DNA of 64,000 nucleotides from Candidatus Kerfeldbacteria bacterium (lineage in GTDB: Bacteria > Patescibacteriota > Patescibacteriia > UBA10025 > JAHIVO01): the NCBI GenBank assembly GCA_047946875.1, contig CP181398.1:399154-463153 (forward strand), in the 5' to 3' direction. Below the pieces are notes generated by a model, which saw nothing but the letters and a program-made list of their open reading frames with translations, was not told where the DNA came from and searched no databases. Shown here piece by piece: positions 36,001-55,952 of this stretch; the stretch's first letter is position 1; each line of letters starts with the position of its first letter. The position numbers were made by a program, and so were the translations under genes.

Positions 36001-36173
36001 CGTGATTCTTGGTCCACAGTATAACGAAGCGACCATTCTTTGCCAGGTAATACTGGCAGTTTATCTGCTGCAGCTTGCTCTGCCAAAAACAAAATTTCCC
36101 GCGTAAGTTTTACGGATTGTGGCTTTTCTCTTGATTCGGCCGATGGATCTATACTTTCGCCACGTGGTGCCAT
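33024..36173 (-). CDS. vWA (MIDAS) domain protein fused to a transglutaminase-like Cys-His-Asp core and an acidic low-complexity linker
   Basis: TGase-like core (YLECYSANTKFVAMMRSAGIPARLVTGH ... GHAWSEIWDGKDWRRFDATP). Acidic repeats (DSESDSESTDSQESQESQESS, EQMEQMEQKKQE). C-terminal vWA with MIDAS DVSGSM...GGT...GDGGD. It starts 6 bp after the upstream AAA gene stop. Confidence 0.8.
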   Translation of the reverse strand: MAPRGESIDPSAESREKPQSVKLTREILFLAEQAAADKLPVLPGKEWSLRYTVDQESRSEKIQGLLEGKYTAEEVASDLRPDALIYDIQDLEESGIEAVSARIRDLTAYISNYDHERFAKFIEGMKGKDIPLEQLDTLYNEVTQARVQKKVMDAYGRTGRHQIESSLSDESRRTIKEIGDLSRTQKVLKALKANWLHEERDLISMDERDQIVSQLSGDERKIFEELQESYRDYIQRGDESGYKNLIDTMQDGLPQLQQEVDSGESSESMQELDEELEQFMEDAVPPSSPEDPAIPPDDNDEYHTPPPGPESKEEMLVKPIFEIKPPLGGYYAAGRKSYYDIDNKTWSKKKDITEYSSSLDSEKRTSLSGYLDAGLKALPLPNGFGIDASSLKFEGGSAKIFRDQNGCFYIEADSNGLFSLDFIQESETFTNPPIPEDTTTIYKGDLSPKTETIISSLAGSSMQKAEQVRQHILANHFYPGGGDLQKAQALQYKIRSESTGDNYLQNIDTSEYLECYSANTKFVAMMRSAGIPARLVTGHKVEGAQDGISAITQNTGHAWSEIWDGKDWRRFDATPNAKPEDKNESDEQGESGQQDSAPEAEDGGVEPPQDQKSEQDSESDSESTDSQESQESQESSNPTDNISDASDSDTQQAQSNFEQAQEQMEQMEQKKQEIEQQMQEAEKFQDLSEIKDKLEQDELPEDFKEELEKKLEAFEEQMKEEVKNNMDQMVDDGFMSEDERDKFIEELNEQDLAELDRIQTKIEQENHLYNEYNDIREEIGPLVDQWFQYFAERLPRKDEVDFDEDSLTRQGAFNRKAVMKPRNLLFGTVKNPRTIKSSVEPRFMASILIDVSGSMQGEKLRSARKLLVFYSELFDKISNAFGYIRFSIDIFSDSTTKIKDFDQDYDSPTRYDYDDGDSSTVKVRLMQKLNTQGGTNMLDGIKKTAKALNDEIDNYPDYASSFYFVGDGGDTCGNSDNIKNFLKMNDSEHGFGEHMHSAILLGNESQRQELAEIFGEDHTNVAPDFDQLIEQSMDKFDEDIEDYFKNKTE

Positions 36174-36179
36174 AGATTT

Positions 36180-39100
36180 TTAATTAGTTACACGTTTTTG
36201 AGAAGTCCATGTCTTCAGAGCTTTTCGGATCTTTTCTTGGTCTTCTTTTTTGTCTATATGAGTTAGAAAATATTTTTCTAATAATTCACGAGCAGTATTT
36301 TCTGGATCACTTGATGTTTTTTCTTCAGTCGTCATACGACTTAACGTATATGCACATCTACGTAGTTCACGGCCAGTAATAGGTTGAGTAACGGGTAAAG
36401 CTTTTCGTGAACTTGTTCCTTTTTCAAAATTCTTAATAAAATCTTCTCGTAATTTATTTGCAAACTGGACTAAAGTCAGAATAGTATCAATATCAAATTT
36501 TTGTTCTAGAGTGGGCTTATCAACTCCATTGTCTATTCCATTAACATATTGATCCCAAAGTTTTACAAATTCATTATGATCCATACTGGCCTCAAATGTG
36601 AGATCAGCTAATGAATCAACGCCACGTGCAATACGAAGAGCTTCAGATGAGTCATACATCGGACGTTTATTAGGATCATCAGGATTGGCTTCACGCGTCA
36701 TCTGTGGGTATCCAATTTCTTGGGAAACCATACGACTTCGTGTAGCAAATTGAGGATCGAATGTACCTGGATAATTTGGATTCATTGACCCGACTAATAA
36801 AACACTAGATAATGCCTTAATTGTTTTTCCAGAACTAGTTTTGAGTGTTAGGGATCTTTTTTCGTCCATCAATGCATGTAAGAATATTTGAGCTTGCTCA
36901 GGCATAGCGTTAAACTCATTGAAATAAACCACAGCTCCTGGTGTACGAATACCGTTTAATATCGTAGAAGGAATTTTAACAGTCTGAGAAGCACCATCTT
37001 TGGATTCCAACATAACATCCTCAGATAGTTCAAATTCTGTAGTCCACTTGGTGCCATCCATACCAAAGTAAGGTCGGTTGGTCATATTACAAAACATTTT
37101 TACACGAACATCTTTACCTGTTCCGGCATGTCCTTTTAGTACCAGCATACCTTCTTGTAGATCCATCTGCATTTTTAGATTACCTGCCATGTTTTCTAGA
37201 TCATCTTCGGTTTCATTGTCTGTAACCCAGTGACTTTGCCATTCTGGGATAAACCCTTTGCCATTGCTAGTTTCTATATTTGGTTGGTTTTTAATACGGT
37301 TAATACGTTGTAATAGGGGAATATTATTTTCTGCACAAAAAGTACCAAATTTTTTATATGCTTCTGAATATTTATCTTGCCATTCTTTATCTTCATCTTC
37401 ATCAGTACGTTCACTAATTTTTTTACGTGTAGAATATAATTCTCTTAGTATTTTTCGATTATCTCTCCATTCTTGTCGGAGTTTTGAATCTTCTCCATGA
37501 TTCCAGTCATTGTATTTCTTTTTAATATTCTTAAAATCCTCTGCAGTAATGTAGGAAGGGGGAATGGATTCACCTTTATATGATTGTAATCCTAGACGCC
37601 ATTCTTGTTCGTCTCGCATACCTTCATATAATCTTACATTTTCATTTTTACCATCACCTGTATTAATGTTTAATATAATATCACCTTGAATATCTTTTGC
37701 TGATATACCTGGTCCTCGTGTTTTGCTATCCTCTTCGAATGCAATATCTACGGATCGTTCTTCTCTTTCCTTCACTTTCGATTCCCATTTAGGAAAGCGA
37801 GTATCACCAAAACTAACCATTTGTTTGCCGGTATCAGCGATAGTAGTCATACCACCACGTTCTATTTCTGTTAACGCATTTGAAAGTCTTACTTTCATCA
37901 TACGTTTTAGCTCTTTAGCAGCATCTGGATCATCATCAGCAAGTGCTTCTATTTCAGTTTCGATATATTTCTTTGCCTCAGATGCTCCTAAATATTGTTC
38001 GCCCGCTGTTCTATCTTTGAAACCTTGAGCTTGTAAGCGATCCTCAAGGCTAGATATCTCTTGTTGTAAAGTATCTACATGAGCTTCGATACGTTCGGAA
38101 GCTTTTTCCCTGACTTTAGCATATTCGATTTTAAATTTATGTTCGTATTCTTCTGCTAATAAATCAAGAGATGTTCGTGCTTCTTGAACTTGTTTGTAAA
38201 TTTCATCAGCTTCAAATGGTATATCGTGATTAATAGAACTTAGTCGAGCTTTAATCTGAGGATAACGAAATTCTAACCAATCATCCATTTGCATTTTTGT
38301 TTCGAAAGATTCTAAATCTTTTTTTGTTTTACTTATTAGTTCATCAATATCTTTCTTTACTTCACCACCGCGTTTTTCAAAAAGTTCACGAATCTGACTA
38401 TCAAGATCTGTTCGTGCTTTAGCTAACTCTAGTCGCTGATCACTAATCAAAAAACCTTCTTGAGATTTTATGTCTTCTAATATCTCGCGAATTTCGGATA
38501 TTGAGCCAAAAGAAAGTCCTCCCTCCAATTTTGTTCGTACTAGTTTTAGAGCCTTGTCAGCCGCTTCTTTGGCAAACATTTTTTCTTTGTCTTGTATAGG
38601 TTTCTCTAAGCCTTCTATAACATAATCAATCTCTTCGGATCGTAAACCACCTGCTTGTAGTTTTTGTCGTACAGTATTAAATTGATCACGAGCTTGTACT
38701 AAGCCTTCATGCGTTGAGACAGTTTCTAACATTTCTTTGAATTTGGTTTGTAGATCATCTCTTACTCCATCTAGTTTATCCATGGATTTGTTATCCAGAC
38801 CTGCTTGTTCATTCTTTGCAGCTTGTTGGGTGAATATATCGTCTATATTCAAATCAGCTGTTGCGCTCTGAATACGATGCTTGTCTAGTTCACCAGCAAG
38901 TTCATCAAAATTCGCTTCATGAATAACTAAATGTCCATCTTTGTCTATAGCTCTTATGTTTCCGTTGTTATCGAAATCTACATGGGATAGATTTGATTCA
39001 CGTTTTACTTCTTTTAGTGTATCCTTTGTCATTACTATTAGATCATCGCCAGAATAGAATAGGAAAAAATTACCTTTAGGGTCTAGCTGAAGGTTTGATA

Positions 39101-40058
39101 TGCTATCATAGTTTTCTGGTATAGGTGCGCCGATAGACGTAAATGATCCAGTAGTTTCATCATTCCCACCAAGATCTATCATGCGAATTTCACGTGGGCT
39201 ACTAGTACGACTAAAATAAAAAATATTAGAATTGTTCGGGTCAACCGCAATATTTCTCTCAACTGATGGGATAGTTTCAGTATAGATTGGTTGGCCTTTT
39301 GGGTCGTCATTTTTCATGATGTTAATACCAATATCGGTGATCTGGACGGAATATTCACCATTGATTTCCACATATCCTTCTTGTTCTCCAACTACTCTTT
39401 CTAGATTTTCCCTAAGTTCTTCACTATATTCGTCTTTAGGATTTAATCTTTTCCAATCACGTGGGGCAAGTTCAACTCCGTGTTCATTCTTGGTAACCAG
39501 TGTTATAACGGCACCATCTTTGGAAAACATAACAAGGTTATTATCTGGCAAAACAGCTACATTAGAAACAGTCTCATTATCAATACCACCAGAGCGGATA
39601 TTTATCATATTGTTAGTACCTAACGCTTTTCTAGCTTGTCCGCGTAGTTCAATTGGTATATCGTCAACGCTAATTTGATTATTAGTGCTGCTTTTTTTAG
39701 CAATGTAACTTTTTGAATGTAGTTTGCTGCTACTATCACTCCAATACCCTGAAGTAATAGTTTTATTAGTAATGTTGGACTGTATATCAGTAATTTTTTT
39801 AGCATTTTCGTCATAAATTTCTATATCTGAGCCTCTTTCTAGACTTACAATAGTATAATTATTCCAGGGTTGTATTGCTTCAATTTTTTGAGGTTCAACC
39901 TCTCTTCCGGTACCAGAAGATCTTCCATCAGATCTTCCATCAATCGGATTTTCCGATCGGACTAACTGGTTTAATTTTAGCTCAGGTAAAGATAGCTCAT
40001 GTTCTTCATGAGTCTCTGTTTCGCCTTGTTTATTTCCTTTTTCGTTTCCACCTACCAT
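36180..40058 (-). CDS. giant MoxR/AAA_5-like ATPase with N-terminal beta-propeller-like repeats and a long coiled-coil
   Basis: The C-terminal AAA_5 core reads LVLKGHAGTGKD (Walker A with D in place of S/T), VVYFNEFNAMPEQAQIFLHALMDE (Walker B NE for DE), LLVGSMNP (sensor 1) and FATRSRM (Arg). The N-terminus has repeated beta-strand blocks and about 300 aa of heptad-rich E/K sequence. Confidence 0.8.
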   Translation of the reverse strand: MVGGNEKGNKQGETETHEEHELSLPELKLNQLVRSENPIDGRSDGRSSGTGREVEPQKIEAIQPWNNYTIVSLERGSDIEIYDENAKKITDIQSNITNKTITSGYWSDSSSKLHSKSYIAKKSSTNNQISVDDIPIELRGQARKALGTNNMINIRSGGIDNETVSNVAVLPDNNLVMFSKDGAVITLVTKNEHGVELAPRDWKRLNPKDEYSEELRENLERVVGEQEGYVEINGEYSVQITDIGINIMKNDDPKGQPIYTETIPSVERNIAVDPNNSNIFYFSRTSSPREIRMIDLGGNDETTGSFTSIGAPIPENYDSISNLQLDPKGNFFLFYSGDDLIVMTKDTLKEVKRESNLSHVDFDNNGNIRAIDKDGHLVIHEANFDELAGELDKHRIQSATADLNIDDIFTQQAAKNEQAGLDNKSMDKLDGVRDDLQTKFKEMLETVSTHEGLVQARDQFNTVRQKLQAGGLRSEEIDYVIEGLEKPIQDKEKMFAKEAADKALKLVRTKLEGGLSFGSISEIREILEDIKSQEGFLISDQRLELAKARTDLDSQIRELFEKRGGEVKKDIDELISKTKKDLESFETKMQMDDWLEFRYPQIKARLSSINHDIPFEADEIYKQVQEARTSLDLLAEEYEHKFKIEYAKVREKASERIEAHVDTLQQEISSLEDRLQAQGFKDRTAGEQYLGASEAKKYIETEIEALADDDPDAAKELKRMMKVRLSNALTEIERGGMTTIADTGKQMVSFGDTRFPKWESKVKEREERSVDIAFEEDSKTRGPGISAKDIQGDIILNINTGDGKNENVRLYEGMRDEQEWRLGLQSYKGESIPPSYITAEDFKNIKKKYNDWNHGEDSKLRQEWRDNRKILRELYSTRKKISERTDEDEDKEWQDKYSEAYKKFGTFCAENNIPLLQRINRIKNQPNIETSNGKGFIPEWQSHWVTDNETEDDLENMAGNLKMQMDLQEGMLVLKGHAGTGKDVRVKMFCNMTNRPYFGMDGTKWTTEFELSEDVMLESKDGASQTVKIPSTILNGIRTPGAVVYFNEFNAMPEQAQIFLHALMDEKRSLTLKTSSGKTIKALSSVLLVGSMNPNYPGTFDPQFATRSRMVSQEIGYPQMTREANPDDPNKRPMYDSSEALRIARGVDSLADLTFEASMDHNEFVKLWDQYVNGIDNGVDKPTLEQKFDIDTILTLVQFANKLREDFIKNFEKGTSSRKALPVTQPITGRELRRCAYTLSRMTTEEKTSSDPENTARELLEKYFLTHIDKKEDQEKIRKALKTWTSQKRVTN

Positions 40059-47933: not shown

Positions 47934-49088
47934 ATGCAGAAATGTGTTTTATTTAAAAAACTAATTGAAATTATGGAAAATCAAAATTCAATACTAGATA
48001 AGGTGATTTCCAGTAAAAAAACTTTAGATATCGAACAATTCAACCCAGTAGAGGTTGTTTCTTCGTTATTAAAAGATTTAACCAGTAGAGAAGAAGATGT
48101 TCTCAGAAGAAGGCATGGATTACTTGGAAAAGAAAAGGAAACATTAGAAAATATTGGAGATACCTACAAGGTTACTCGTGAAAGGATTAGACAAATTGAA
48201 AAAACAGCAATAGTAAAGATAAAAAAGAATAAATCATTTGTAAACATTTCAGCTCCAATTGAAAGAACTAGCTTTTCTGTTTTAGAGCAACACGGTGGAG
48301 TAATGTCAGAAGATTCTTTACTTGATGAATTATTACAAGTTTCTGGTAATAATTTGACTAATAGACAAAATATTCTTTTTATTATTTCTGAATTATTAGA
48401 TAGTAAATTTAAAAAAATTAAAGAAGATGAAACATTTAGAGAGTCATGGCAAATAGTACATGCTCCTATTCATCTACTAAAGGATACTTTAAATTTTTTA
48501 TATGAATTTATTGAAGAGAATAAAAAACCTTTAACTGTAGATGATGTTATACGAAAGTTTAAAGAATCTGAATTCTATTCAAAAAATAGTGATCAGTTTA
48601 CTGATGAGGTAATAATCTCATATTTAGAAATTAGTCCAAAAATATCTCAAAATCCATTTGGTGAGTATGGTTTGACATCTTGGGGTAGTGTGGTTCCGAA
48701 AAGAATGAACGATAAAATATATTTGGTATTAAAACGGCAAAATAAACCTATGCATTTTAATGAGATTACAGAAAAAATAAATGAAATTAAATTTGATGAA
48801 CGTAAGGCATATCCACCAACAGTTCATAATGAACTAATTCTAAATAAAAAATATGTATTAGTTGGTAGAGGTATCTATGCATTGAAAGAGTGGGGATACG
48901 AACCAGGTGTAGTTTCAAATGTTTTACAAGAAATTTTAAAGAAGGAGGAAAAACCTTTAACTAGAGAAGAGTTAGTTAAGAGTGTGTTGGAGCGAAGGAT
49001 TGTAAAAAAGAACACTATTCATTTAGCTTTAACAAACCGAGAGAAATTCAAAAAATTGTCTGATGACACTTATACTCTCGTAGAATAA
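47934..49088 (+). CDS. sigma-70 region-4 HTH domain protein with uncharacterised C-terminal domain
   Basis: LTSREEDVLRRRHGL...ETLENIGDTYKVTRERIRQIEKTAIVKI matches the sigma-70 region 4.2 pattern. Regions 2 and 3 are absent. Confidence 0.55.
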   Translation: MQKCVLFKKLIEIMENQNSILDKVISSKKTLDIEQFNPVEVVSSLLKDLTSREEDVLRRRHGLLGKEKETLENIGDTYKVTRERIRQIEKTAIVKIKKNKSFVNISAPIERTSFSVLEQHGGVMSEDSLLDELLQVSGNNLTNRQNILFIISELLDSKFKKIKEDETFRESWQIVHAPIHLLKDTLNFLYEFIEENKKPLTVDDVIRKFKESEFYSKNSDQFTDEVIISYLEISPKISQNPFGEYGLTSWGSVVPKRMNDKIYLVLKRQNKPMHFNEITEKINEIKFDERKAYPPTVHNELILNKKYVLVGRGIYALKEWGYEPGVVSNVLQEILKKEEKPLTREELVKSVLERRIVKKNTIHLALTNREKFKKLSDDTYTLVE

Positions 49089-49102: not shown

Positions 49103-50521
49103 ATGGATTTTCTTTTTGACCCGCAGTCATTTTTAGGAACAATGCCAAATGCCTCAAATCCTTTTTCGGCTATGTTTTTGCTTATCCAAAATGGTGGTTG
49201 GATTTTAATTTTATTAACTCTAATTTGGGGGGCGTGGATTGCATGGGTAGAATATATACGAAATAAATTTAATAGTGAACAAGAAGAAATCTTACTGGCT
49301 ATTGATATTCCCAAAGGCAATGAACAAAGTCCAAAAGCTGTCGAACATATTTTTTCACATTTATTTGGAATATATAAAGGAGGTACACTTAAAGATAAAT
49401 ATATAAAAGGTTATAACCAATGGGCTATTGGGTTGGAGATAGTAAGTATTGAAGGTTATATCCAATTTTTGATACATACTCCTTTACGGTTTAGAGATTT
49501 AGTTGAAGCATCTATATATGCGCAGTATCCAGACGCTGAAATTACAGAAGTTGAGGACTATGTAAATTTAATACCAAAACCACTCGAGTTCCCACATCGC
49601 GAATGGGATTTTTGGGGAAGTGAGTTTGCTATGCAAAAAAATGAGTTATATCCAATTGTAACATGGCCAACGTTTGAACATTCTTTGAGTCAAACGTTTA
49701 TGGATCCAATGGCATCGATGCTTGAATCAATGAGTAGGATGGGTCCAGGAGAGCATTTATGGTTACAAATAATTATTGCACCTGAAAATTCTAGTTGGAA
49801 AAAAAGAAGCGAAGCCCTAATAAATAGATTGATTGGCAAAAAAAATGGTGGAAGTAAGTCGGATTGGATGTATTTCCCAAGAGAAATAACCAAAGGACTT
49901 TCCGAATCAATGACAGCATCTATAATACCACCTAGTGAGATGGCAGGTGCTAACCAAAAAACAGAAAGAGAATGGCCAAGTATGATGCAACATTTATCAC
50001 CTTCCGAAAAAGAAGTTGTGGAAGCTATAGGATTAAAAATGAATAAACTTGGATTCAAATCTAAAATACGTTTTATATATGCTGCTAAAAAAGAAGTACT
50101 CAATAAGCCAAAAGGCGTTGATGCAATAAAGGGAGCTTTATTGCAATTTAGTAGTCAAAATTTAAATGGATTTATACTTGATACAAAGACAAGAACAAAG
50201 ATAAATTATTTTTTTAAGAAAACTAGAACTTTATGGAGAAAGCATAGGATATTAAGAAATTATCGGGCAAGAAGTATTAAAAAAGGTAGAAGAAAATATA
50301 TATTAAACATTGAAGAATTGGCGACTATTTGGCATTTCCCAATAAGTGAGGTTGTTCAAGTACCAACTGTTCAGACTGTGGCTGCTAAGAAAGGGCAAGC
50401 TCCGACTAATATTCCTGTTGATAGAGGAAAAGAAACTGTTTTAGGTAGTTCTATGTTTACTAATAAAGATAAAGAACCAGAGAGAAAAATATCTCCACCA
50501 CCTAACATACCTTTTGTATAA
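49103..50521 (+). CDS. hypothetical membrane protein (partner of the downstream VirD4-like ATPase)
   Basis: One N-terminal TM and a soluble domain of about 420 aa. It ends 3 bp before the next gene. Confidence 0.5.
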   Translation: MDFLFDPQSFLGTMPNASNPFSAMFLLIQNGGWILILLTLIWGAWIAWVEYIRNKFNSEQEEILLAIDIPKGNEQSPKAVEHIFSHLFGIYKGGTLKDKYIKGYNQWAIGLEIVSIEGYIQFLIHTPLRFRDLVEASIYAQYPDAEITEVEDYVNLIPKPLEFPHREWDFWGSEFAMQKNELYPIVTWPTFEHSLSQTFMDPMASMLESMSRMGPGEHLWLQIIIAPENSSWKKRSEALINRLIGKKNGGSKSDWMYFPREITKGLSESMTASIIPPSEMAGANQKTEREWPSMMQHLSPSEKEVVEAIGLKMNKLGFKSKIRFIYAAKKEVLNKPKGVDAIKGALLQFSSQNLNGFILDTKTRTKINYFFKKTRTLWRKHRILRNYRARSIKKGRRKYILNIEELATIWHFPISEVVQVPTVQTVAAKKGQAPTNIPVDRGKETVLGSSMFTNKDKEPERKISPPPNIPFV

Positions 50522-50523
50522 AT

Positions 50524-52236
50524 ATGGTAACTATAAACCCAGAAGATCAAGTAGTATCATTTGCCAGAACAAACTTTCGTAACATGGAAAAAAAGTTTGG
50601 CATTAAAGTTGATGACAGAAGACGTCATATGTATTTGATTGGAAAAACTGGCATGGGTAAAACTACTGTTATTGAAAATATGGTAATTTCTGACATAAAA
50701 GCAGGTAGAGGTTTAGCGCTAGTTGACCCTCACGGTGATCTAATAGAAAAGGTTATTCAGTATATACCATCATATAGAGTGAATGATGTTGTTTATTTTA
50801 ATCCTGCGGATACAGACAATCCTATTGGATTTAATGTTTTGGAGAGTGTAGACGAGTCTCAGAGACATTTAGTTGCTTCTGGGTTAATGGGTGTCTTTAC
50901 TAAAATATGGGAAGGTGTATGGAGTGCTAGAATGGAATATATATTAAATAATGCAATATTAGCATTACTAGAATACCCAGGATCTACTATGTTAGGAATA
51001 TCTCGAATTTTAGTAGATAAAAAGTTTAGAAATAAAGTTATTGATAAAGTTACAGATCCGGTTGTTAAAGCTTTTTGGAAAGAAGAGTACGCAGGCTATA
51101 ATGAAAGATTTAGAAATGAAGCTATTGCTCCTATTCAAAATAAGGTTGGACAATTCTTATCTAGTTCTGTAATTAGAAATATAGTTGGACAACCAAAGAG
51201 TACTATCGATTTGAGAGATTTAATGGATTCTGAAAAAATATTATTATTTAATTTATCTAAAGGTAGGGTAGGTGAAGATAATTCTGCTTTATTAGGTGCA
51301 ATGATGATTACAAGAATTCAATTAGCAGCTATGAGTCGTGTAAATATAGAAGAAAAAGATAGAAAAGATTTTTATTTATATGTTGATGAGTTTCAAAATT
51401 TTGCTACAGAAAGTTTTGCTAGTGTACTGTCTGAAGCTAGAAAATATAGACTAAATCTAATCATCGCTCATCAGTACATTGAACAGTTAGATGAGACAGT
51501 AAGAGCTGCTGTATTTGGAAATGTGGGTACAATAATATGTTTTAGAGTAGGAGCAGGAGATTCAGAATTTTTAGCAAAAGAATTTTTTCCAGTTTTTTTA
51601 GAAGAAGATCTAATTAATCTTACAAAGTATAATGTATATCTTAAATTAATGATTGATGGTGTATCATCTGAGCCTTTTTCAGCAATAACATTACCGCCAA
51701 TAGAAGGACGTACAAATAATAGGGATAAAGTTATTTCTGTCTCTAGAGAGAGATATAGTAAGCCAAAAGAATTAGTAGAAGAAAAAATATTAAGATGGAG
51801 TGGAGTCAATGATACAATTAAATTAAGTGAAAATACTGCACCAAAAAAAGATTATTCTACAAATAAACCCCCATATAAAAAACCCGTTAGCAATAGCTAT
51901 ACTCCAAATAGATCAAAAACACCCTATGTCAAAAAAACTGAATCAAAGAGACCAGAATCAGAAAAGCCTGAATTAGAGAAAAAACCTTTTCAAAAAAAAC
52001 CTTTCAGAGAACCTATAAAGAATCTTGAATCTGTAAAAATTGATAATCAAGATAAGACTATTTCACTAAAAGAAGCCTTGAGTGGCAAAACAAATAAGTT
52101 TTCTGGTAGGAATAACAAATCTCAACAGAAAGATAGACCTCAATTTAATAAACAAACTAGACCAAATCAGATAAATTCTACTAATAGTTCACAATCATTA
52201 AAAAAAGGTCAGGTGGTTAATTTTAATAAAAAATAA
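50524..52236 (+). CDS. VirD4/TraD/TraG-like (type IV coupling-protein family) P-loop ATPase with K/P-rich C-terminal tail
   Basis: Walker A LIGKTGMGKTT, Walker B LYVDEFQNF, and NLIIAHQYIEQL (the Q..QL of T4CPs). The last ~150 aa are low-complexity, basic and Pro-rich. Confidence 0.6.
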   Translation: MVTINPEDQVVSFARTNFRNMEKKFGIKVDDRRRHMYLIGKTGMGKTTVIENMVISDIKAGRGLALVDPHGDLIEKVIQYIPSYRVNDVVYFNPADTDNPIGFNVLESVDESQRHLVASGLMGVFTKIWEGVWSARMEYILNNAILALLEYPGSTMLGISRILVDKKFRNKVIDKVTDPVVKAFWKEEYAGYNERFRNEAIAPIQNKVGQFLSSSVIRNIVGQPKSTIDLRDLMDSEKILLFNLSKGRVGEDNSALLGAMMITRIQLAAMSRVNIEEKDRKDFYLYVDEFQNFATESFASVLSEARKYRLNLIIAHQYIEQLDETVRAAVFGNVGTIICFRVGAGDSEFLAKEFFPVFLEEDLINLTKYNVYLKLMIDGVSSEPFSAITLPPIEGRTNNRDKVISVSRERYSKPKELVEEKILRWSGVNDTIKLSENTAPKKDYSTNKPPYKKPVSNSYTPNRSKTPYVKKTESKRPESEKPELEKKPFQKKPFREPIKNLESVKIDNQDKTISLKEALSGKTNKFSGRNNKSQQKDRPQFNKQTRPNQINSTNSSQSLKKGQVVNFNKK

Positions 52237-52250
52237 ACTAAAAAAATACT

Positions 52251-52742
52251 ATGGTAACCAATAAGTTAAGGCCACCGATTTATGATAGAAGTGGCAATCT
52301 ATTGAAACATTTACAATACGATAGAATAGATAATTATGTATATATTGGTACTACGATTTGTTGTCAGTATCATCTAAACCTGTTAATAAAAAAGAATATA
52401 ATTGCAGATATTGATCTAGAGCAAGAAAAAATGGATAAGCCTTCTGGTGTCACTGCCTTTTTATGGTTACCAACTATTGATTTTACCCCACCATCCCAAC
52501 TTCAGCTATTTGCTGGAGCTGATTTTATTCACACTTTGGTTAAAAATAAAATGAAATGTTATGTTCATTGTAATGCTGGATTGGGACGTGCACCAACTAT
52601 GGTGTCAGCGTATTACATTTTACATAGGGGACTAACCCCAAAAGAAGCAGTAAAAAGAATTAGGAAGAATAGACCCAGAGTTAGTCCTAATAATAAGCAG
52701 ATGGCTGCTTTAGAAAGGTTCTATAAGGAAGTTAATAAATAA
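52251..52742 (+). CDS. dual-specificity / tyrosine protein phosphatase
   Basis: CX5R P-loop VHCNAGLGRAPT. Confidence 0.75.
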   Translation: MVTNKLRPPIYDRSGNLLKHLQYDRIDNYVYIGTTICCQYHLNLLIKKNIIADIDLEQEKMDKPSGVTAFLWLPTIDFTPPSQLQLFAGADFIHTLVKNKMKCYVHCNAGLGRAPTMVSAYYILHRGLTPKEAVKRIRKNRPRVSPNNKQMAALERFYKEVNK

Positions 52743-52877
52743 TATAAACAAACAAGTCTATTGTTTTATTAATAGGCTGTTTTGTTATTTATTAGTATCA
52801 TCTAGAAATTTTTCAATCTCATATTGAGAAAGATTGCTATTGTCAATATTTGCATAATGGAAAAATTTTTAAAATAA

Positions 52878-54197
52878 ATGTATAATATAAGTATGAAAAT
52901 AACTAGATTTGAAATAAATAAATATAAAAGTATTGCCAGTAAGTTTAATTTAATAGACCCCGGTAAAATTCATTTTTTTATTGGATCAAATAATGCTGGT
53001 AAAACAAATATATTAGATGCCATTTATCAAGTTTATAATAGAGATAATATCAGATTTCCTGATAAACAGACTGATTTGGAAATTGATTTTTCAGTAACAA
53101 GTAAGAATGGAAAATTACTACAGGTTAAACAGAAGAATGGAATTAAGAATTTTTTATTGGATAATAAAAAAATTAACAGTGAAACCGCAAAGACAATATT
53201 AGATAAACATATTATTAGAATACGAGCTACCAAACCAATATTGATAAGTAGGTTGCAGAAAGATTATTCAATTTTTAGAAAGAAATATCCACATGAATTC
53301 AAACAATTCTCCAAAACAATTTCTGATTATATTCCGCAAATAAAATTAAGTGATATATTCGAAAAAAGTAAAGGTATTCATGATGATAATATTATAAGGC
53401 CATTTGAACGACTTGGTGATGGATTTCAACAGGTTTTTGTTATACTAATGTATTTATTTAATCCTGTTTACACAATAATGCTTTTAGAAGAGCCAGAGAT
53501 TCATTTACATCCTGCTTTAATAAAAAAATTATTAAAGATTTTAGAAAATAGAAATTATAACGATCAAATTTTTTTAACTACTCATTCACCTTTATTTATA
53601 AATATAAATAGTTTGCATAGATTGTTTAGGGTAGTAAAAGAAGAAGGAAAAACTATTGTATATTCACCTAGGCTTACAGGCATAAAATTAAATTACACAA
53701 GACTAAAGCAAGAGTTAAACGCAGATAATAGCGAAATGTTATTTTCTGATAAAGTATTATTAGTAGAAGGTCCATCTGATCATATTCTATTGAGGGCGCT
53801 TATTGATAGATTTTATAAAGGAGGGAAAGATATAAAAGTAATCCAAACGTATGGTAAGAGTAATGTCGACATTTATACACAATTACTAGAGATGTTTATG
53901 ATTCCTTATGCTGTCTTATTAGATAGAGATGCTTTATATGATACAGGTGTGAAATTAGTAGCAAAGGAAATAGGTAATAGTTACGCAAAGACAGAAAATA
54001 CCCTAATAAATATTTTGAAAAAACACAATATTTATATACTACCAAACGGAAGTATAGAAAAAAATTATCCTCGTAGATATCAAAGAAGACGTAAACATAA
54101 GCCTCAGAATGCAATGTATGCTGCTTCACATATTACTGAAAATGAATATAAATCACCTTTAATGAAAAATATCAAAGAAGTAATAGATAATTTATAA
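52878..54197 (+). CDS. OLD-family ATP-dependent endonuclease (ABC-type ATPase + Toprim), class 1 (no helicase partner)
   Basis: N-terminal KITRFEINKYKSI...GSNNAGKTN (Walker A), LLEEPEIHLHP (Walker B) and LTTHSP (H-loop). The C-terminal Toprim has VLLVEGPSDHILL and VLLDRD. Confidence 0.7.
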   Translation: MYNISMKITRFEINKYKSIASKFNLIDPGKIHFFIGSNNAGKTNILDAIYQVYNRDNIRFPDKQTDLEIDFSVTSKNGKLLQVKQKNGIKNFLLDNKKINSETAKTILDKHIIRIRATKPILISRLQKDYSIFRKKYPHEFKQFSKTISDYIPQIKLSDIFEKSKGIHDDNIIRPFERLGDGFQQVFVILMYLFNPVYTIMLLEEPEIHLHPALIKKLLKILENRNYNDQIFLTTHSPLFININSLHRLFRVVKEEGKTIVYSPRLTGIKLNYTRLKQELNADNSEMLFSDKVLLVEGPSDHILLRALIDRFYKGGKDIKVIQTYGKSNVDIYTQLLEMFMIPYAVLLDRDALYDTGVKLVAKEIGNSYAKTENTLINILKKHNIYILPNGSIEKNYPRRYQRRRKHKPQNAMYAASHITENEYKSPLMKNIKEVIDNL

Positions 54198-54305: not shown

Positions 54306-55373
54306 TTGTATATGAATATAGAAAATAAAAAAGTATTCGTGGCAATGTCCGGAGGCGTTGATTCATCTGTGGCTGCTTATCTTCTAATTAATGAAGGATG
54401 TGATGTTACTGGTGTATACATGAAGAACTGGTCAGACCCATTGGCTGATGAATGTCCTTGGCGTGAAGACATTAAAGATTTTAGAAAAGTTTGCAAAATC
54501 TTAAAAATCCCCGCTAGGATAGAAGTTTTTGAAGAAGAGTACAGAAAAAAAGTTGTAAAGTATTTGGTAGATGGTTATAAAAAAGGAATTACGCCAAATC
54601 CAGATATGTTATGCAATAGTGAAATTAAATTCAAATTATTTTTGGACAAAGCAAAAGAACTAGGAGCTGATCTGATAGCTACTGGTCATTATGTAATTAA
54701 AAAAGAAATTAAGGGAATTCATAATTTATACCAAGCTAAAGATGGAAATAAAGACCAGTCATATTTTTTAGCATTGTTAAACCAAAAACAATTAAGTATG
54801 TCATTATTCCCAATTGGAATTTATCCAAAAAATGAAATTAGAAAAATTGCAAAAAAAGCAAAATTACCCGTTCATGATAAAAAAGATAGTCAGGGAATAT
54901 GCTTTATCGGTAAAGTAAAGTTTAGTGATTTTATTAGAGACTTTGTTCCTCGTAATGAAGGCGATATTATAACAGATAAAGGTGAGATAATTGGTAGGCA
55001 TGACGGTGTATCTTATTATACAATCGGTCAAAGACATGGATTGAAGATTGGTGGTGGTGTGCCATATTTTGTGATTAAAAAGAATAAAAAAACGAACGAA
55101 TTGGTAGTTGCCAAAGGTTCTAGTAATGTTAATTTATTCAATAAAGAGTTAATTGCAAATAAATTCAATTGGATTAGTAATGAAAGAATTAAATTACCTT
55201 TAAATTGCTATGCTAGGATTAGGTATCGACAACCATTACAAAGATGTAGAGTTACTAAGAAAAATGGTATATACTCTATTACTTTCACTAAACCTCAAAG
55301 AGCTATAACTCCTGGACAATTTATAGTCCTATATAGTAGAAGAAAAATGTTGGGTGGCGGAGTAATTAATTAA
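54306..55373 (+). CDS. mnmA: tRNA-specific 2-thiouridylase MnmA
   Basis: PP-loop AMSGGVDSS, TGHY, CFIG. Confidence 0.85.
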   Translation: MYMNIENKKVFVAMSGGVDSSVAAYLLINEGCDVTGVYMKNWSDPLADECPWREDIKDFRKVCKILKIPARIEVFEEEYRKKVVKYLVDGYKKGITPNPDMLCNSEIKFKLFLDKAKELGADLIATGHYVIKKEIKGIHNLYQAKDGNKDQSYFLALLNQKQLSMSLFPIGIYPKNEIRKIAKKAKLPVHDKKDSQGICFIGKVKFSDFIRDFVPRNEGDIITDKGEIIGRHDGVSYYTIGQRHGLKIGGGVPYFVIKKNKKTNELVVAKGSSNVNLFNKELIANKFNWISNERIKLPLNCYARIRYRQPLQRCRVTKKNGIYSITFTKPQRAITPGQFIVLYSRRKMLGGGVIN

Positions 55374-55382
55374 TTTATCGTT

Positions 55383-55952
55383 ATGTATGTATTTATAGGT
55401 GGAGTACCTACAACTGGGAAAACTCATTTAGTAAAAGATTTTATAAAGAAATCAAAACTTAATATTTTGCATGTTGAGATTGATGACATTAGAGATAAAT
55501 TTAAAAATGACGTTAATCTTATAAAATGGGTAAATTTTTTTAGAGATCAAGATGAAGATGTTTATTGGCAAAATACTTCTTGTCAGAAGCACATAGAGAA
55601 TGTAGTTAGGCAATCCGAGGAGTTATGGCCTCATATTTTAGAACAAATTATTAATATACAAAACAAACACGAGCATGTAATTTTTGAAGGAGTTCAACTA
55701 ATGCCAAGATTGACAAGAAAATTTTTAAAAATGAATGGATTTTTTTTGATCCCACCAGATATTGAAACAATATATATTAGATTAGTAGCTCATAAAAGAT
55801 GGGGGGTTACAAATGATCAAAAAAGGAATGAAGCAAAATGTTTTTTTGAAGGGGATGCTAAATACATAAATACGGAGGCTAGAAAGTTTGGTTATAAAGT
55901 TTTTGATAATACTGATGAAGGTTATAGTCAATTATATAAATGGTTTAATTAA
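55383..55952 (+). CDS. P-loop NTPase / kinase-like protein
   Basis: An N-terminal Walker A GGVPTTGKTH in a small protein of about 190 aa. Confidence 0.45.
   Translation: MYVFIGGVPTTGKTHLVKDFIKKSKLNILHVEIDDIRDKFKNDVNLIKWVNFFRDQDEDVYWQNTSCQKHIENVVRQSEELWPHILEQIINIQNKHEHVIFEGVQLMPRLTRKFLKMNGFFLIPPDIETIYIRLVAHKRWGVTNDQKRNEAKCFFEGDAKYINTEARKFGYKVFDNTDEGYSQLYKWFN

What the first reader, a model, noticed from the sequence alone, without database searches (positions are those of the whole stretch)
52878..54197. Stand-alone class-1 OLD-family nuclease (ABC ATPase + Toprim) next to a phosphatase and a VirD4-like ATPase
The gene carries the full set of OLD motifs. The N-terminal ATPase has ...GSNNAGKTN, LLEEPEIHLHP and TTHSP. 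The Toprim domain has VLLVEGPSD and LLDRD. No UvrD/GajB-like helicase is adjacent, so it resembles class 1 OLD rather than Gabija. OLD-family proteins are established anti-phage and plasmid-exclusion nucleases. It sits immediately after a dual-specificity phosphatase gene and a T4CP-like ATPase. Seeing it in a reduced, CPR-like genome is notable.
Basis: partly seen in the sequence, partly recalled or inferred. Interest (0 to 1): 0.55.

Follow-up and report, generated by a model that had tools for sequence, protein, structure and literature searches.

The report
Lineage-fixed compact OLD nuclease in Kerfeldbacteria
The gene is a genuine, catalytically intact OLD-family ATPase–Toprim nuclease, but in this group of ultra-small (CPR) bacteria it is inherited vertically in one fixed chromosomal slot and evolves like its housekeeping neighbours, unlike a typical mobile anti-phage gene.

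Summary
ORF 52878-54197(+) encodes an ABC-ATPase + OLD-Toprim protein; the likely true start is 52893, giving 434 aa. All ATPase motifs and all six metal-binding residues validated in Ts/P2 OLD are present. A confident AlphaFold model matches Ts OLD best. No helicase, retron or other defence gene is adjacent, so it is "Class 1" by the gene-context definition.

Three points change the interpretation:
- It belongs to a small, well-separated compact subfamily (417-484 aa) of Patescibacteria. Its nearest relatives are DPANN archaeal OLDs. This is the uncharacterized clade "U2" of Yang et al. 2025, not phylogenetic Class 1.
- In 13 of 14 sampled lineages of a Kerfeldbacteria-level clade the gene sits in the same slot, directly upstream of mnmA-alaS-infA-ribosomal genes. 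Its distances track those of its neighbours (r 0.78-0.87), its dN equals that of mnmA, and its tree is congruent with the housekeeping tree. A second clade (Komeilibacteria-type) keeps it in a different stable slot.
- The VirD4-like ATPase (with DUF8128) is a lineage-wide pair unrelated to OLD. The phosphatase is dispensable.

The window holds no defence island and no mobile-element genes, and no compact-clade homologue was found on viral contigs or in phage records. Whether the role is fixed immunity or a Cran1-like cellular function remains open.

The parts
52893..54197 (+). ABC ATPase spans about aa 1-265, with a shortened insertion at aa 46-175. A conserved linker QELNADNxEM lies at aa 273-282. 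The Toprim domain spans about aa 286-395, followed by a short C-terminal helical tail to aa 434.
52983..53006 (+). Walker A / P-loop, G31-x-N33-N34-x-G36-K37-T38 (GSNNAGKT). K37 corresponds to P2 Old K37.
   Evidence: Invariant G31, N33, G36 and K37 in the 34-sequence alignment. The P2 K37A phenotype is cited from PMC7049728.
53409..53429 (+). ABC signature motif, R173-L-G175-D-G177-F-Q (LGxGF).
   Evidence: G175 and G177 invariant, F178 nearly invariant.
53487..53513 (+). Walker B and D-loop block, E199-E200-P-E202-I-H204-L-H206-P207. E199 corresponds to P2 D299 and H206 to P2 H306.
   Evidence: E200, P201, E202, H204, L205, H206 and P207 invariant. Aligns to EEPEMYLHP of Ts OLD. P2 residues.
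53577..53591 (+). H-loop, T229-T-H231-S-P233. H231 corresponds to P2 H332.
   Evidence: Nearly invariant.
53766..53780 (+). Toprim E-G-x-S-D motif. E292 is a metal A ligand (Ts E377) and D296 a metal B ligand (Ts D381).
   Evidence: E292, G293, S295 and D296 invariant. Aligns to LLVEGYGDR of Ts OLD. Ts residues.
53922..53930 (+). Toprim DxD motif, D344-R-D346. Both are metal A ligands (Ts D431 and D433).
   Evidence: Invariant. Aligns to HDED of Ts OLD.
54051..54071 (+). S387-I-E389-K-N-Y392-P393. S387 and E389 are the predicted metal B ligands (Ts S478 and E480). An invariant K403 follows and is a candidate general-acid or transition-state residue.
   Evidence: E389, Y392, P393 and K403 invariant, G386 nearly invariant. 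The assignment rests on the S-x-E spacing and position, by analogy to Ts/P2 OLD. It is inferred and was not superposed.
52858..52886 (+). Best sigma-70-like promoter match (TGGAAA-17-TATAAT, 10 of 12). Its -10 box ends 6 nt before ATG 52893, so the transcript may be leaderless.
   Evidence: This is a consensus match only; promoter-like sites are not enriched over shuffled sequence.
54306..55373 (+). mnmA (tRNA 2-thiouridylase). It is the only neighbour that is constant across the clade: it lies immediately downstream of OLD in 13 of 13 loci, with gaps of -4 to 136 nt.
52251..52742 (+). Dual-specificity (Cys-based) phosphatase. A frequent but dispensable upstream neighbour, not an obligate partner.
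   Evidence: Absent in L098 and L103. The DSP-to-OLD gap ranges from -4 to 2156 nt.
49103..52236 (+). DUF8128 membrane protein plus TrwB/TraD-like ATPase. A lineage-wide conserved pair that is independent of OLD; context only.

Best explanation
The gene encodes a compact (434 aa) OLD-family enzyme made of two parts. The first is an N-terminal Rad50/SMC-like ABC ATPase whose inserted dimerization region is about 67 residues shorter than in Thermus OLD. The second is a C-terminal Toprim nuclease with a full two-metal site.

By homology with Ts OLD, P2 Old, the Vibrio Class 1 OLD and Cran1, I infer how it works. It most likely forms ATP-sandwich dimers through Walker A and the LGxGF signature motif. 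ATP binding or hydrolysis would then gate a Mg2+/Ca2+-dependent DNA nicking or 5'-3' degrading activity in the Toprim domain.

Its evolution is what sets it apart. It belongs to a small CPR subfamily whose nearest relatives are DPANN archaeal OLDs (clade U2 of Yang et al. 2025). Since its arrival between the T4CP-like gene and mnmA at the base of a Kerfeldbacteria-level clade, it has been inherited vertically. It stays fixed in that slot, is probably co-transcribed with mnmA in many genomes, and is under purifying selection as strong as that on mnmA and alaS.

It therefore behaves as a resident core-like gene of this lineage: either a constitutively kept genome-guarding nuclease or a domesticated DNA-processing nickase. 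It does not behave as a mobile, fast-turnover anti-phage cassette.

Shown here: identity, motifs, fold, stand-alone context, vertical inheritance and evolutionary constraint. Inferred: oligomeric state, ATP gating, DNA as substrate, and physiological role.
For: Identity and fold:
- Pfam, PADLOC and PDB sequence hits.
- AF2 model with pLDDT 87.6; top PDB fold match is Ts OLD 6p74.

Catalytic competence:
- K37, E199/E200, H206, H231, G175/G177, E292, D296, D344, D346 and E389 are present in the window protein. Apart from E199 and H231 they are invariant across 34 homologues down to 39% identity; H231 is nearly invariant, and position 199 is D or E in most homologues but S or N in a few.
- They map one-to-one onto the residues shown by mutagenesis to be required in Ts and P2 OLD.

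Subfamily:
- An exhaustive profile search shows three score tiers. The compact clade scores 625 down to about 310 bits (417-484 aa). DPANN-type proteins score 336-235 bits (526-538 aa). All other OLDs score below 190 bits.
- OIP80295, 39% identical to the window protein, and Nanoarchaeota MBU0666826 (identical to P0134 over the 399 residues the dataset prints) are both labelled U2 in Dataset EV1 of PMC12796447.
- The nesting is recovered in an NJ tree.

Fixed slot:
- The same synteny is seen in L001, L081, L083, L085 and L167.
- Sampling that does not depend on OLD, anchored on DUF8128, finds OLD present in L087, L089, L091, L092, L095, L097, L098, L099 and L103. It is absent only in L093/L094.
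- The OLD-to-mnmA junction is never interrupted.

Vertical descent and constraint:
- OLD pairwise distances correlate with mnmA 0.84, DUF8128 0.87, the sigma/HARE protein 0.87, SecF 0.85 and AlaRS 0.78. Housekeeping genes correlate with each other at 0.6-0.83.
- dN between the window and L167 is 0.121 for OLD, 0.118 for mnmA and 0.157 for alaS.
- The OLD tree and the housekeeping tree share their groupings.
- A second lineage keeps OLD-EamA-glycosidase-like synteny in 9 of 13 loci.

Not mobile, not an island:
- No integrase, transposase, relaxase or other PADLOC hits in the window.
- GC content is like the surroundings.
- No compact-clade member on IMG/VR contigs or in GenBank phages.
Against: - No experiment exists for any member of this clade. 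Activity, substrate and oligomeric state rest on homology alone.
- The gene is not universal. It is absent from the same slot in the sister or early-branching lineage L093/L094 and in the broader ~40% clade, so it is not essential to the basic biology of these bacteria.
- The U2 clade is shared between CPR bacteria and DPANN archaea, which implies inter-domain transfer, a trait typical of defence genes.
- All characterized bacterial OLDs are defence-related.
- dS is saturated (greater than 1), so dN/dS values are only indicative.
- The trees are simple NJ trees without support values.
- Sampling covers 14 lineages from metagenomes. It is not a census of complete genomes.
Confidence: 0.6

Rival explanations
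1. It is a conventional stand-alone Class 1 OLD anti-phage or plasmid-exclusion nuclease. It was acquired horizontally, senses infection and nicks or degrades invading DNA, or the cell's own DNA as abortive infection. In this lineage it simply happens to have been retained for a long time.
For: - It is a single gene without partners, with a full OLD catalytic set.
- The best PADLOC model is P2-type Old.
- Class 1 OLDs defend in P2 and in Vibrio cholerae (PMC7049728; PMC12392090 title and abstract).
- The U2 clade mixes CPR and DPANN, which implies horizontal transfer.
- The gene is absent from related lineages at the same locus.
- CPR have a high defence-gene density per Mb.
Against: - The slot is fixed in 13 of 14 lineages across divergence at which ribosomal protein S4 is only about 50% identical.
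- Its rate and distance pattern cannot be told apart from mnmA and alaS, and there is no sign of arms-race acceleration.
- There are no defence or mobile genes nearby.
- There are no viral homologues of the compact clade.
- CPR defence systems are described as transient.
- The 'variable locus' prediction fails.
Confidence: 0.35
2. It is a bacterial counterpart of archaeal Cran1 (Class 5 OLD): a domesticated nickase acting on the cell's own chromosome, for example in topology, replication, segregation or repair in a genome with few repair genes. It would be expressed together with translation genes.
For: - It shows the same evolutionary signature that led to Cran1's discovery: clade-restricted, vertically inherited, with a gene tree matching the species tree.
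- It is tightly linked, often with overlap, to mnmA-alaS-infA-ribosomal genes.
- It is under strong purifying selection.
- The genome is streamlined (a contig of about 1.3 Mb), so retention of a 1.3-kb gene implies sustained benefit.
Against: - It is not related to Cran1 specifically; it is in clade U2, whereas Cran1 is in U11.
- It is absent in L093/L094 and in neighbouring CPR clades, so any such function is lineage-specific and dispensable elsewhere.
- There are no data on expression, localisation or essentiality.
Confidence: 0.3
3. OLD works as one module with the adjacent dual-specificity phosphatase and the VirD4-like ATPase/DUF8128 pair. Examples would be a DNA-translocation-coupled nuclease system or a MADS-like defence system.
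For: - The genes are co-oriented and closely spaced in the window, with 14-nt and 135-nt gaps.
- The T4CP-like protein hits PADLOC mad8 at 4e-17, and OLD weakly hits NCBIfam MAD3.
- DSP and OLD are both missing in L093/L094.
Against: - The DUF8128+ATPase pair is conserved in more than 60 loci that have no OLD.
- DSP is absent in the OLD-bearing loci L098 and L103.
- Up to about 2 kb of unrelated genes, some antisense, are inserted between T4CP, DSP and OLD in several genomes.
- Komeilibacteria-type orthologues have entirely different neighbours.
- The MAD3 hit scores 49 bits against a cutoff of 420 and covers only the ABC signature region.
- No methyltransferase or other MADS genes are present.
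Confidence: 0.05
4. It is an RNA- or tRNA-directed Toprim nuclease, like AriB of PARIS, whose function is tied to the downstream tRNA-modification and aminoacylation genes.
For: - It is invariably adjacent to mnmA and close to alaS.
- Toprim nucleases of the wider OLD/PARIS group can cleave tRNA (PMC12409363 abstract).
- P2 Old has reported RNase activity.
Against: - Komeilibacteria-type orthologues are not next to tRNA genes.
- The closest structural and sequence relatives (Ts OLD, GajA) are DNA nucleases.
- Adjacency alone is weak evidence.
Confidence: 0.05
5. It is a RecF/SbcC/RecN-like housekeeping ABC ATPase without a nuclease domain.
For: There are weak N-terminal hits to SMC_N and RecF models.
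Against: - The OLD-like Toprim domain is matched end to end at 7.6e-15, with invariant metal ligands.
- The full-length fold match is to Ts OLD.
- The RecF hit scores 27 bits against a cutoff of 172 and covers only residues 8-60.
Confidence: 0.01

Closest known systems
Clade 'U2' of OLD-family proteins in Yang et al. 2025 (EMBO Rep, PMC12796447): uncharacterized, mixed CPR bacteria and DPANN archaea
   Same: A 39%-identical full-length homologue (OIP80295, matching P0052 over its printed N-terminus) and the nearest outgroup (Nanoarchaeota MBU0666826, identical to P0134 over its 399 printed residues) are both labelled U2. They share the linker and Toprim motifs (RLxQELNxxNxEMFFADKVLLVEGxSD) and the C-terminal YP...K...AL tail.
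   Different: The window protein belongs to a compact sub-branch (417-484 aa, against 526-538 aa for the DPANN forms). The paper read the mixed membership of such clades as a sign of horizontal spread. Here the Kerfeldbacteria-type sub-branch is shown to be vertically inherited in a fixed slot. I inferred U2 membership from close homologues and from score tiers; I did not re-run the paper's tree.
Thermus scotoductus OLD (Class 1; PDB 6P74) and P2 Old
   Same: - Single-gene context.
- ABC ATPase with an inserted region, followed by a Toprim domain without the Class 2 C-terminal helical domain.
- All validated ATPase residues and metal A/B residues are conserved.
- Best sequence-profile and fold match in the PDB.
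   Different: - Only 16% identity in the structural alignment, and 25% to P2 Old over 47% of the length.
- About 67 residues shorter between Walker A and the signature motif, where Ts OLD has its four-helix dimerization domain. The model shows only two helices and a disordered loop there.
- P2 Old is phage-borne, whereas this gene is chromosomal and fixed.
Cran1 (Class 5 / U11 OLD of Sulfolobales)
   Same: It is an OLD-family ATPase-nickase restricted to one lineage and vertically inherited, with a tree that mirrors the species tree. That is the same atypical evolutionary signature.
   Different: It is from a different clade and a different domain of life. Cran1 is experimentally essential and cell-cycle regulated; nothing comparable is known here. 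The gene here is absent from a closely related lineage (L093/L094).
GajA (Class 2 OLD, Gabija)
   Same: The same two-domain architecture, with strong profile and fold matches.
   Different: No GajB/UvrD helicase within 10 kb in any of the 14 loci. The protein is about 140 aa shorter.

Membership tests
OLD family (ABC ATPase + Toprim nucleases) | N-terminal ABC-type ATPase with Walker A, signature motif, Walker B, D-loop His and H-loop | tested here: met
   Pfam AAA_21 and AAA_15. K37, G175/G177, E200 and H206 are invariant in the family alignment; H231 is nearly invariant; the Walker B acidic position (E199 here) is D or E in most homologues. They map to P2 K37, D299, H306 and H332.
OLD family (ABC ATPase + Toprim nucleases) | C-terminal OLD-type Toprim domain with metal A ligands (E, DxD) and metal B ligands (D/E at +4, and S/T/D-x-E) | tested here: met
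   PF20469 matched 1-67 of 67 positions at 7.6e-15. E292, D344 and D346 correspond to metal A; D296, S387 and E389 to metal B. The S387/E389 assignment is by motif position, not by superposition.
OLD family (ABC ATPase + Toprim nucleases) | Overall fold like a solved OLD protein | tested here: met
   AF2 model with pLDDT 87.6. Foldseek top hits are 6p74, GajA and retron Eco8 OLD, all with probability 1.00.
OLD family (ABC ATPase + Toprim nucleases) | ATP hydrolysis and metal-dependent DNA cleavage | not testable with these tools
   Requires biochemistry.
Class 1 OLD (context definition; Schiltz 2019, Dot 2023) | [quoted passage not shown] | tested here: met
   All neighbours are identified and none is a helicase or reverse transcriptase. 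No Rfam retron ncRNA in the window. PADLOC is negative for the neighbours.
Class 1 OLD (as a phylogenetic clade, Yang et al. 2025) | Branches within the Class 1/2 clade containing P2 Old and Ts OLD | tested here: not met
   Close homologues are labelled U2, not Class 1, in Dataset EV1. Profile scores place DPANN U2 proteins (336 bits) well above all other OLDs (below 190 bits). The NJ tree agrees.
Class 2 OLD / Gabija GajA | UvrD-like helicase GajB immediately downstream | tested here: not met
   The downstream gene is mnmA in 13 of 13 loci.
Class 3 OLD (retron effector) | Adjacent reverse transcriptase and msr/msd ncRNA | tested here: not met
   No RT domain among the neighbours. No Rfam hit. 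The NCBIfam retron Eco8 effector hit scores 50 bits against a cutoff of 250.
Class 4 OLD / PARIS AriA-AriB | ATPase and Toprim on separate polypeptides | tested here: not met
   Both domains lie in one 434-aa ORF.
Class 5 OLD / Cran1 (U11) | Member of the Sulfolobales-restricted clade; essential; cell-cycle-regulated nickase | tested here: not met
   Clade membership is not met: this protein is bacterial and falls in U2. Essentiality and regulation cannot be tested here. The resemblance is in evolutionary behaviour only.
Typical mobile anti-phage defence gene | Patchy distribution among close relatives, variable locus or defence island, association with mobile elements | tested here: not met
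   Same slot in 13 of 14 lineages. Trees are congruent. No mobile-element or defence genes in the 64-kb window. No viral homologues of the compact clade.
Type IV secretion / conjugation module (for the neighbouring VirD4-like ATPase) | Coupling protein accompanied by a relaxase, VirB4 and other T4SS components | tested here: not met
   There is only a TrwB_AAD_bind/TraG-D_C-like ATPase plus a DUF8128 membrane protein. No other T4SS gene is present in the window or in the syntenic loci.

The most novel reading that the evidence does not exclude
This compact U2 OLD is a bacterial analogue of Cran1. On this reading a nuclease family best known for anti-phage defence was recruited, independently of the archaeal case, into a resident cellular role in ultra-small CPR bacteria. 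The role could be chromosome nicking or relaxation, replication- or repair-associated processing, or turnover of imported DNA. It would be expressed from the mnmA-alaS-ribosomal gene string. The related DPANN forms might then reflect the same need in ultra-small archaea.
Probability: 0.3. Interest if true: 0.7.

Novelty: new variant of a known kind. Interest (0 to 1): 0.42.

Why it matters
OLD nucleases are usually read as anti-phage defence genes, and automated tools will label this one that way. Only one exception is documented: the archaeal Cran1, which has a cell-cycle role. It was found because its gene showed lineage-wide vertical conservation.

This locus shows the same signature in bacteria. 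A distinct, unusually small OLD subfamily is shared by CPR and DPANN organisms. It is fixed in one chromosomal slot next to translation genes across deep divergence, in genomes of about 1 Mb where dispensable genes are quickly lost.

If the role is cellular, it would be a second, independent domestication of an immune nuclease. It would also hint at a shared requirement in ultra-small symbionts. If the role is defence, it would be a rare case of a single-gene Class-1-type OLD kept as 'core immunity'. That bears on the open question of whether Class 1 OLDs defend on their own (PMC10568477).

The compact 434-aa form is also a minimal OLD scaffold, which could be useful for structural and biochemical work.

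Practically, the finding warns against inferring 'defence' from an OLD domain hit alone, and against reading meaning into the neighbouring VirD4-like and phosphatase genes.

Tried and rejected
1. **Functional module with the phosphatase and the VirD4-like ATPase.** Rejected. The DUF8128+ATPase pair occurs in more than 60 loci without OLD. DSP is missing from two OLD-bearing loci. Unrelated genes are inserted between them in several genomes.
2. **MADS-like system**, suggested by the PADLOC mad8 hit on the ATPase and the NCBIfam MAD3 hit on OLD. Rejected. The scores are far below the cutoffs, the hits cover only generic P-loop/ABC regions, and no methyltransferase is present.
3. **Defence island or mobile element.** Pfam and PADLOC scans of 30 further ORFs in the window found no integrase, transposase, relaxase or defence component. 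There are no tRNA genes or Rfam families in the window. GC content is not deviant at the locus.
4. **Viral origin.** Scans of IMG/VR and GenBank phages returned only distant partial OLD matches of at most 37% identity.
5. **OLD pseudogene remnant in the OLD-less lineage L093.** None found, even at E = 10.
6. **Source-contig gene calls for the exact protein P0001.** Not on record.
It could not serve as a census.
8. **dN/dS.** dS is saturated (above 1) even for the closest pair, so only dN and the rank order are informative.
9. **Maximum-likelihood tree with P2 Old, Ts OLD, GajA and Cran1.** I did not build one. Reference sequences were only partly available, because Dataset EV1 sequences are truncated at about 400 aa. 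Clade assignment therefore rests on the labels of close homologues, on score tiers and on an NJ tree.
Full report
**1. Observation**

Several independent lines establish its identity.

- Pfam assigns AAA_21 (4e-22) and AAA_15 (8e-18) to the N-terminal two thirds. It assigns the OLD-specific Toprim model PF20469 end to end (positions 1-67 of 67, 7.6e-15) to residues 288-351.
- In PADLOC the best model is P2-type Old (2e-35), followed by dozens of GajA models.
- NCBIfam gives only far-sub-threshold hits: retron Eco8 effector, MAD3, PtuA and RecF.
- Against PDB sequences the family profile hits Thermus scotoductus OLD 6P74 best (1e-26), then GajA (2e-20).
- An AlphaFold2 model built on a 34-sequence alignment is confident (pLDDT 87.6, pTM 0.86). 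Its best Foldseek matches in the PDB are 6P74 (E 3e-19, TM 0.62), GajA and the retron-Eco8 OLD.

The start codon needs a small correction. The best -10-like TATAAT box (52881-52886) overlaps the first ATG. All orthologues but the closest one start at the second ATG, and the database entry is 434 aa. The CDS is probably 52893..54197. I use 434-aa numbering below.

**2. Catalytic equipment**

In an alignment of 34 homologues reaching down to 39% identity, the following positions are invariant:

- G31, N33, G36 and K37 (Walker A)
- G175 and G177 (LGxGF signature)
- E200, P201, E202, H204, L205, H206 and P207 (Walker B glutamate and D-loop)
- E292, G293, S295 and D296 (Toprim EGxSD)
- K315, G321 and K322
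- D344 and D346 (DxD)
- E389, Y392, P393 and K403

H231 (the H-loop) is nearly invariant.

I compared these with the residues shown by mutagenesis to matter in Ts and P2 OLD (PMC7049728).

| Site | This protein | Ts / P2 OLD |
|---|---|---|
| Walker A | K37 | P2 K37 |
| Walker B | E199 | P2 D299 |
| D-loop | H206 | P2 H306 |
| H-loop | H231 | P2 H332 |
| Metal A | E292, D344, D346 | Ts E377, D431, D433 |
| Metal B | D296, S387, E389 | Ts D381, S478, E480 |

The spacings agree, and the HMMER alignment to 6P74 pairs EEPEIHLHP with EEPEMYLHP, LLVEGxSD with LLVEGYGD, and LLDRD with VHDED. The S387/E389 assignment is by motif and position, not by superposition.

The protein is about 90-150 aa shorter than Ts OLD (528 aa) and P2 Old. 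Of this, 67 residues are missing between Walker A and the signature motif, where Ts OLD carries its four-helix dimerization domain. The model shows only two helices (residues 118-146) and a low-confidence loop (147-175) in that region.

**3. Source organism and family size**

An exact protein match is recorded from a Candidatus Kerfeldbacteria MAG contig of 1.31 Mb, annotated 'ATP-dependent nuclease'. The top 120 homologues are mostly 405-475 aa (a few shorter entries look truncated). Where a name is given, they come from Patescibacteria (Kerfeldbacteria, Komeilibacteria, Parcubacteria). Identity falls smoothly from 82% to 36%.

An exhaustive HMM search of 1.84 billion cluster representatives shows three score tiers:

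- a compact clade of roughly 25-30 representatives at 625 down to about 310 bits (417-484 aa);
- a small group of 526-538 aa at 336-235 bits;
- a plateau of ordinary OLDs (about 610-690 aa) below 190 bits.

One member of the middle tier, P0134, matches Nanoarchaeota MBU0666826 exactly over the 399 residues printed in Dataset EV1. Dataset EV1 of Yang et al. 2025 (PMC12796447) labels that protein as clade 'U2', one of 11 uncharacterized OLD clades in their tree. It gives the same label to OIP80295 (Parcubacteria; 39% identical to the window protein, E 4e-91) and to several Kerfeldbacteria and Patescibacteria entries. In the portion of the dataset I read, U2 consisted of CPR bacteria plus DPANN archaea. 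An NJ tree recovers the nesting: Kerfeldbacteria-type, then other CPR compact forms, then DPANN forms, then generic OLDs.

So the gene is 'Class 1' by the context-based definition, a single gene with no helicase, retron or defence neighbour (PMC10568477). It is not part of the phylogenetic Class 1/2 clade.

**4. Genomic context and inheritance (the main result)**

The window order is: SecD - SecF - (sigma70 region 4 + HARE-HTH protein) - DUF8128 membrane protein - TrwB/TraD-like ATPase - DSP phosphatase - OLD - mnmA - small P-loop ORF - alaS - infA - rpsM - rpsK - rpsD.

The same order, with OLD in the same slot, is found in contigs whose OLD is 82% (L167), 73% (L081), 56% (L001, L083) and 50% (L085) identical.

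To sample without conditioning on OLD, I anchored a metagenome scan on the DUF8128 neighbour. I then scored all neighbours by tblastn.

- Among loci whose anchor is at least 53% identical and which have enough downstream sequence, OLD lies between the ATPase/DSP and mnmA in L087, L089, L091, L092, L095, L097, L098, L099 and L103.
- Only L093/L094 (one lineage) lacks it. It also lacks DSP, and no remnant is detectable.
- Counting the window and the other loci, 13 of 14 lineages carry the gene in the same place.
- In a concatenated housekeeping NJ tree, L093 sits in an unresolved trichotomy with the two OLD-bearing groups. The pattern therefore implies one gain and at most one loss.
- In the wider clade (anchor about 40% identical) the DUF8128-ATPase pair persists, and mnmA-alaS sometimes follows. 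OLD is not there.

OLD evolves like its neighbours.

- Identity to the window protein tracks mnmA, alaS and DUF8128 in every genome.
- All-pairs distances correlate at 0.84 (mnmA), 0.87 (DUF8128), 0.87 (sigma/HARE), 0.85 (SecF) and 0.78 (AlaRS). Housekeeping genes correlate with each other at only 0.6-0.83.
- For the closest pair, dN is 0.121 for OLD, 0.118 for mnmA and 0.157 for alaS. dS is saturated, so the ratios of about 0.06-0.08 are only indicative.
- The OLD tree reproduces the housekeeping groupings: (window, L167) with L081 and L087; (L001, L089); and (L085, L097) basal.

The OLD-to-mnmA junction is never interrupted, with gaps of -4 to 136 nt and five of them at 6 nt or less. The upstream side is an insertion hotspot, with DSP-to-OLD gaps of -4 to 2156 nt and T4CP-to-DSP gaps of up to 2 kb.

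A second lineage (Komeilibacteria-type, about 40% identical) keeps the gene in a different but equally stable slot. There the order is OLD - EamA transporter - glycosidase-like protein in 9 of 13 loci, often preceded by a DUF6938 gene whose stop overlaps the OLD start.

**5. What the locus is not**

- The window has no integrase, transposase, relaxase, further T4SS gene, restriction-modification system or other PADLOC-recognised component.
- It has no tRNA genes or Rfam elements.
- There is no compositional anomaly at the locus.
- No compact-clade member is found on IMG/VR viral contigs or in GenBank phages. The best matches are 37% partial, and P2 Old is 25% identical over 47% of the query.
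- The VirD4-like ATPase is half of a lineage-wide pair with DUF8128 and does not depend on OLD.
- The phosphatase is absent from two OLD-bearing loci and is separated from OLD by unrelated genes in others.

**6. How it most likely works**

At the molecular level I infer by homology that ATP-dependent head-to-head association of the ABC domains gates a two-metal Toprim nuclease, which nicks or degrades DNA. This is how Ts OLD, P2 Old, Class 2 OLDs and Cran1 behave.

At the biological level the evidence separates two things. It is well supported that the gene is a resident, vertically inherited, strongly constrained part of the core chromosome of this clade, and that it is not a fast-turnover defence cassette. 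What it does there is not settled.

Evidence pointing towards defence:
- the precedent of all characterized bacterial OLDs;
- the CPR-DPANN distribution of U2, which implies inter-domain transfer;
- absence from sister lineages.

Evidence pointing towards a Cran1-like cellular recruitment:
- the fixed slot;
- a housekeeping-like rate with no sign of an arms race;
- tight linkage to translation genes;
- retention in a streamlined genome, whereas CPR defence systems are described as transient (PMC12259885).

My estimates are about 0.35 for fixed defence, about 0.30 for a cellular DNA-processing role, and the remainder for minor alternatives or an unresolved role.

**7. Novelty and verdict**

The protein family, its annotation and even the clade (U2) are already in the literature and in databases, so the basic call is not new.

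Three things appear to be new. I found no paper describing them in the two full-text searches I ran.
- The compact sub-branch forms a discrete, minimal OLD architecture.
- It is stably and vertically inherited, with conserved synteny, in two CPR lineages.
- This parallels the signature that revealed the non-defence OLD Cran1.

I rate it a new variant of a known kind, with moderate interest (0.42). It is an ordinary enzyme family in an unusual evolutionary mode, and the functional question cannot be answered with sequence tools.

Noticed in passing
window 49103-50521 and 50524-52236: A DUF8128 membrane protein and a TrwB/TraD/VirD4-like P-loop ATPase form a conserved pair. The ATPase has no transmembrane segment of its own and carries a K/P/S/N-rich low-complexity tail of about 130 aa. 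The pair occurs in 234 metagenome loci. The ATPase stays 55-72% identical even where DUF8128 drops to about 40%. The pair usually lies downstream of SecDF. No other T4SS or conjugation genes are nearby, so it looks like a lineage-wide 'split coupling-protein-like' translocase of unknown role.
   Followed up: partly
window 47934-49088: A 384-aa protein combining Sigma-70 region 4 with a HARE-HTH domain. It is syntenic between SecF and DUF8128 across nearly all related loci. The domain fusion is unusual, and I did not investigate its role.
   Followed up: no
window 33024-40058 (minus strand): Two giant genes: a 1049-aa protein with a transglutaminase core and a 1292-aa protein with an AAA_5 (MoxR/dynein-like) domain. 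They form the main minus-strand block of the window (a few other minus-strand ORFs exist, e.g. the AcrB-like gene at 10179-13340). GC content is 0.36-0.38 against about 0.30 elsewhere, and the GC skew is reversed. There is no significant PADLOC match (only a marginal TerY hit, E 7.6e-4). This may be an accessory insertion.
   Followed up: partly
window 55383-55952: A 189-aa P-loop kinase-like ORF lies between mnmA and alaS. It is present only in the closest relatives (L167, L081) and absent from the other syntenic loci that cover this interval, so it is a recent insertion into the conserved string.
   Followed up: partly
window 52743-52892; L081, L167, L085, L097: The interval between the T4CP-like gene, DSP and OLD is an insertion hotspot. 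L081 and L167 carry LiaF-like transmembrane genes there, and L085 and L097 carry two antisense genes of unknown function. The OLD-to-mnmA junction is never interrupted.
   Followed up: yes
window 52858-52893: The best promoter-like match has its TATAAT box ending 6 nt before the probable start ATG at 52893, and no Shine-Dalgarno sequence is visible. The OLD mRNA may be leaderless.
   Followed up: partly
L084 6697-9335; also L006, L008, L009, L010: In Komeilibacteria-type genomes a 434-aa DUF6938 protein gene ends exactly where the OLD gene starts (a 1-nt overlap), and this arrangement is conserved. It may be a lineage-specific partner of the compact OLD. The gene is absent from the window clade.
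   Followed up: partly
L093 / L094 (metagenome contigs Ga0075987_101 and Ga0155659_117): This is the only sampled lineage of the clade in which the T4CP-like gene is followed directly by mnmA (a 486-nt gap). It has neither DSP nor OLD, and no detectable remnant. It is either an early branch that predates the gain or a clean joint loss.
   Followed up: yes
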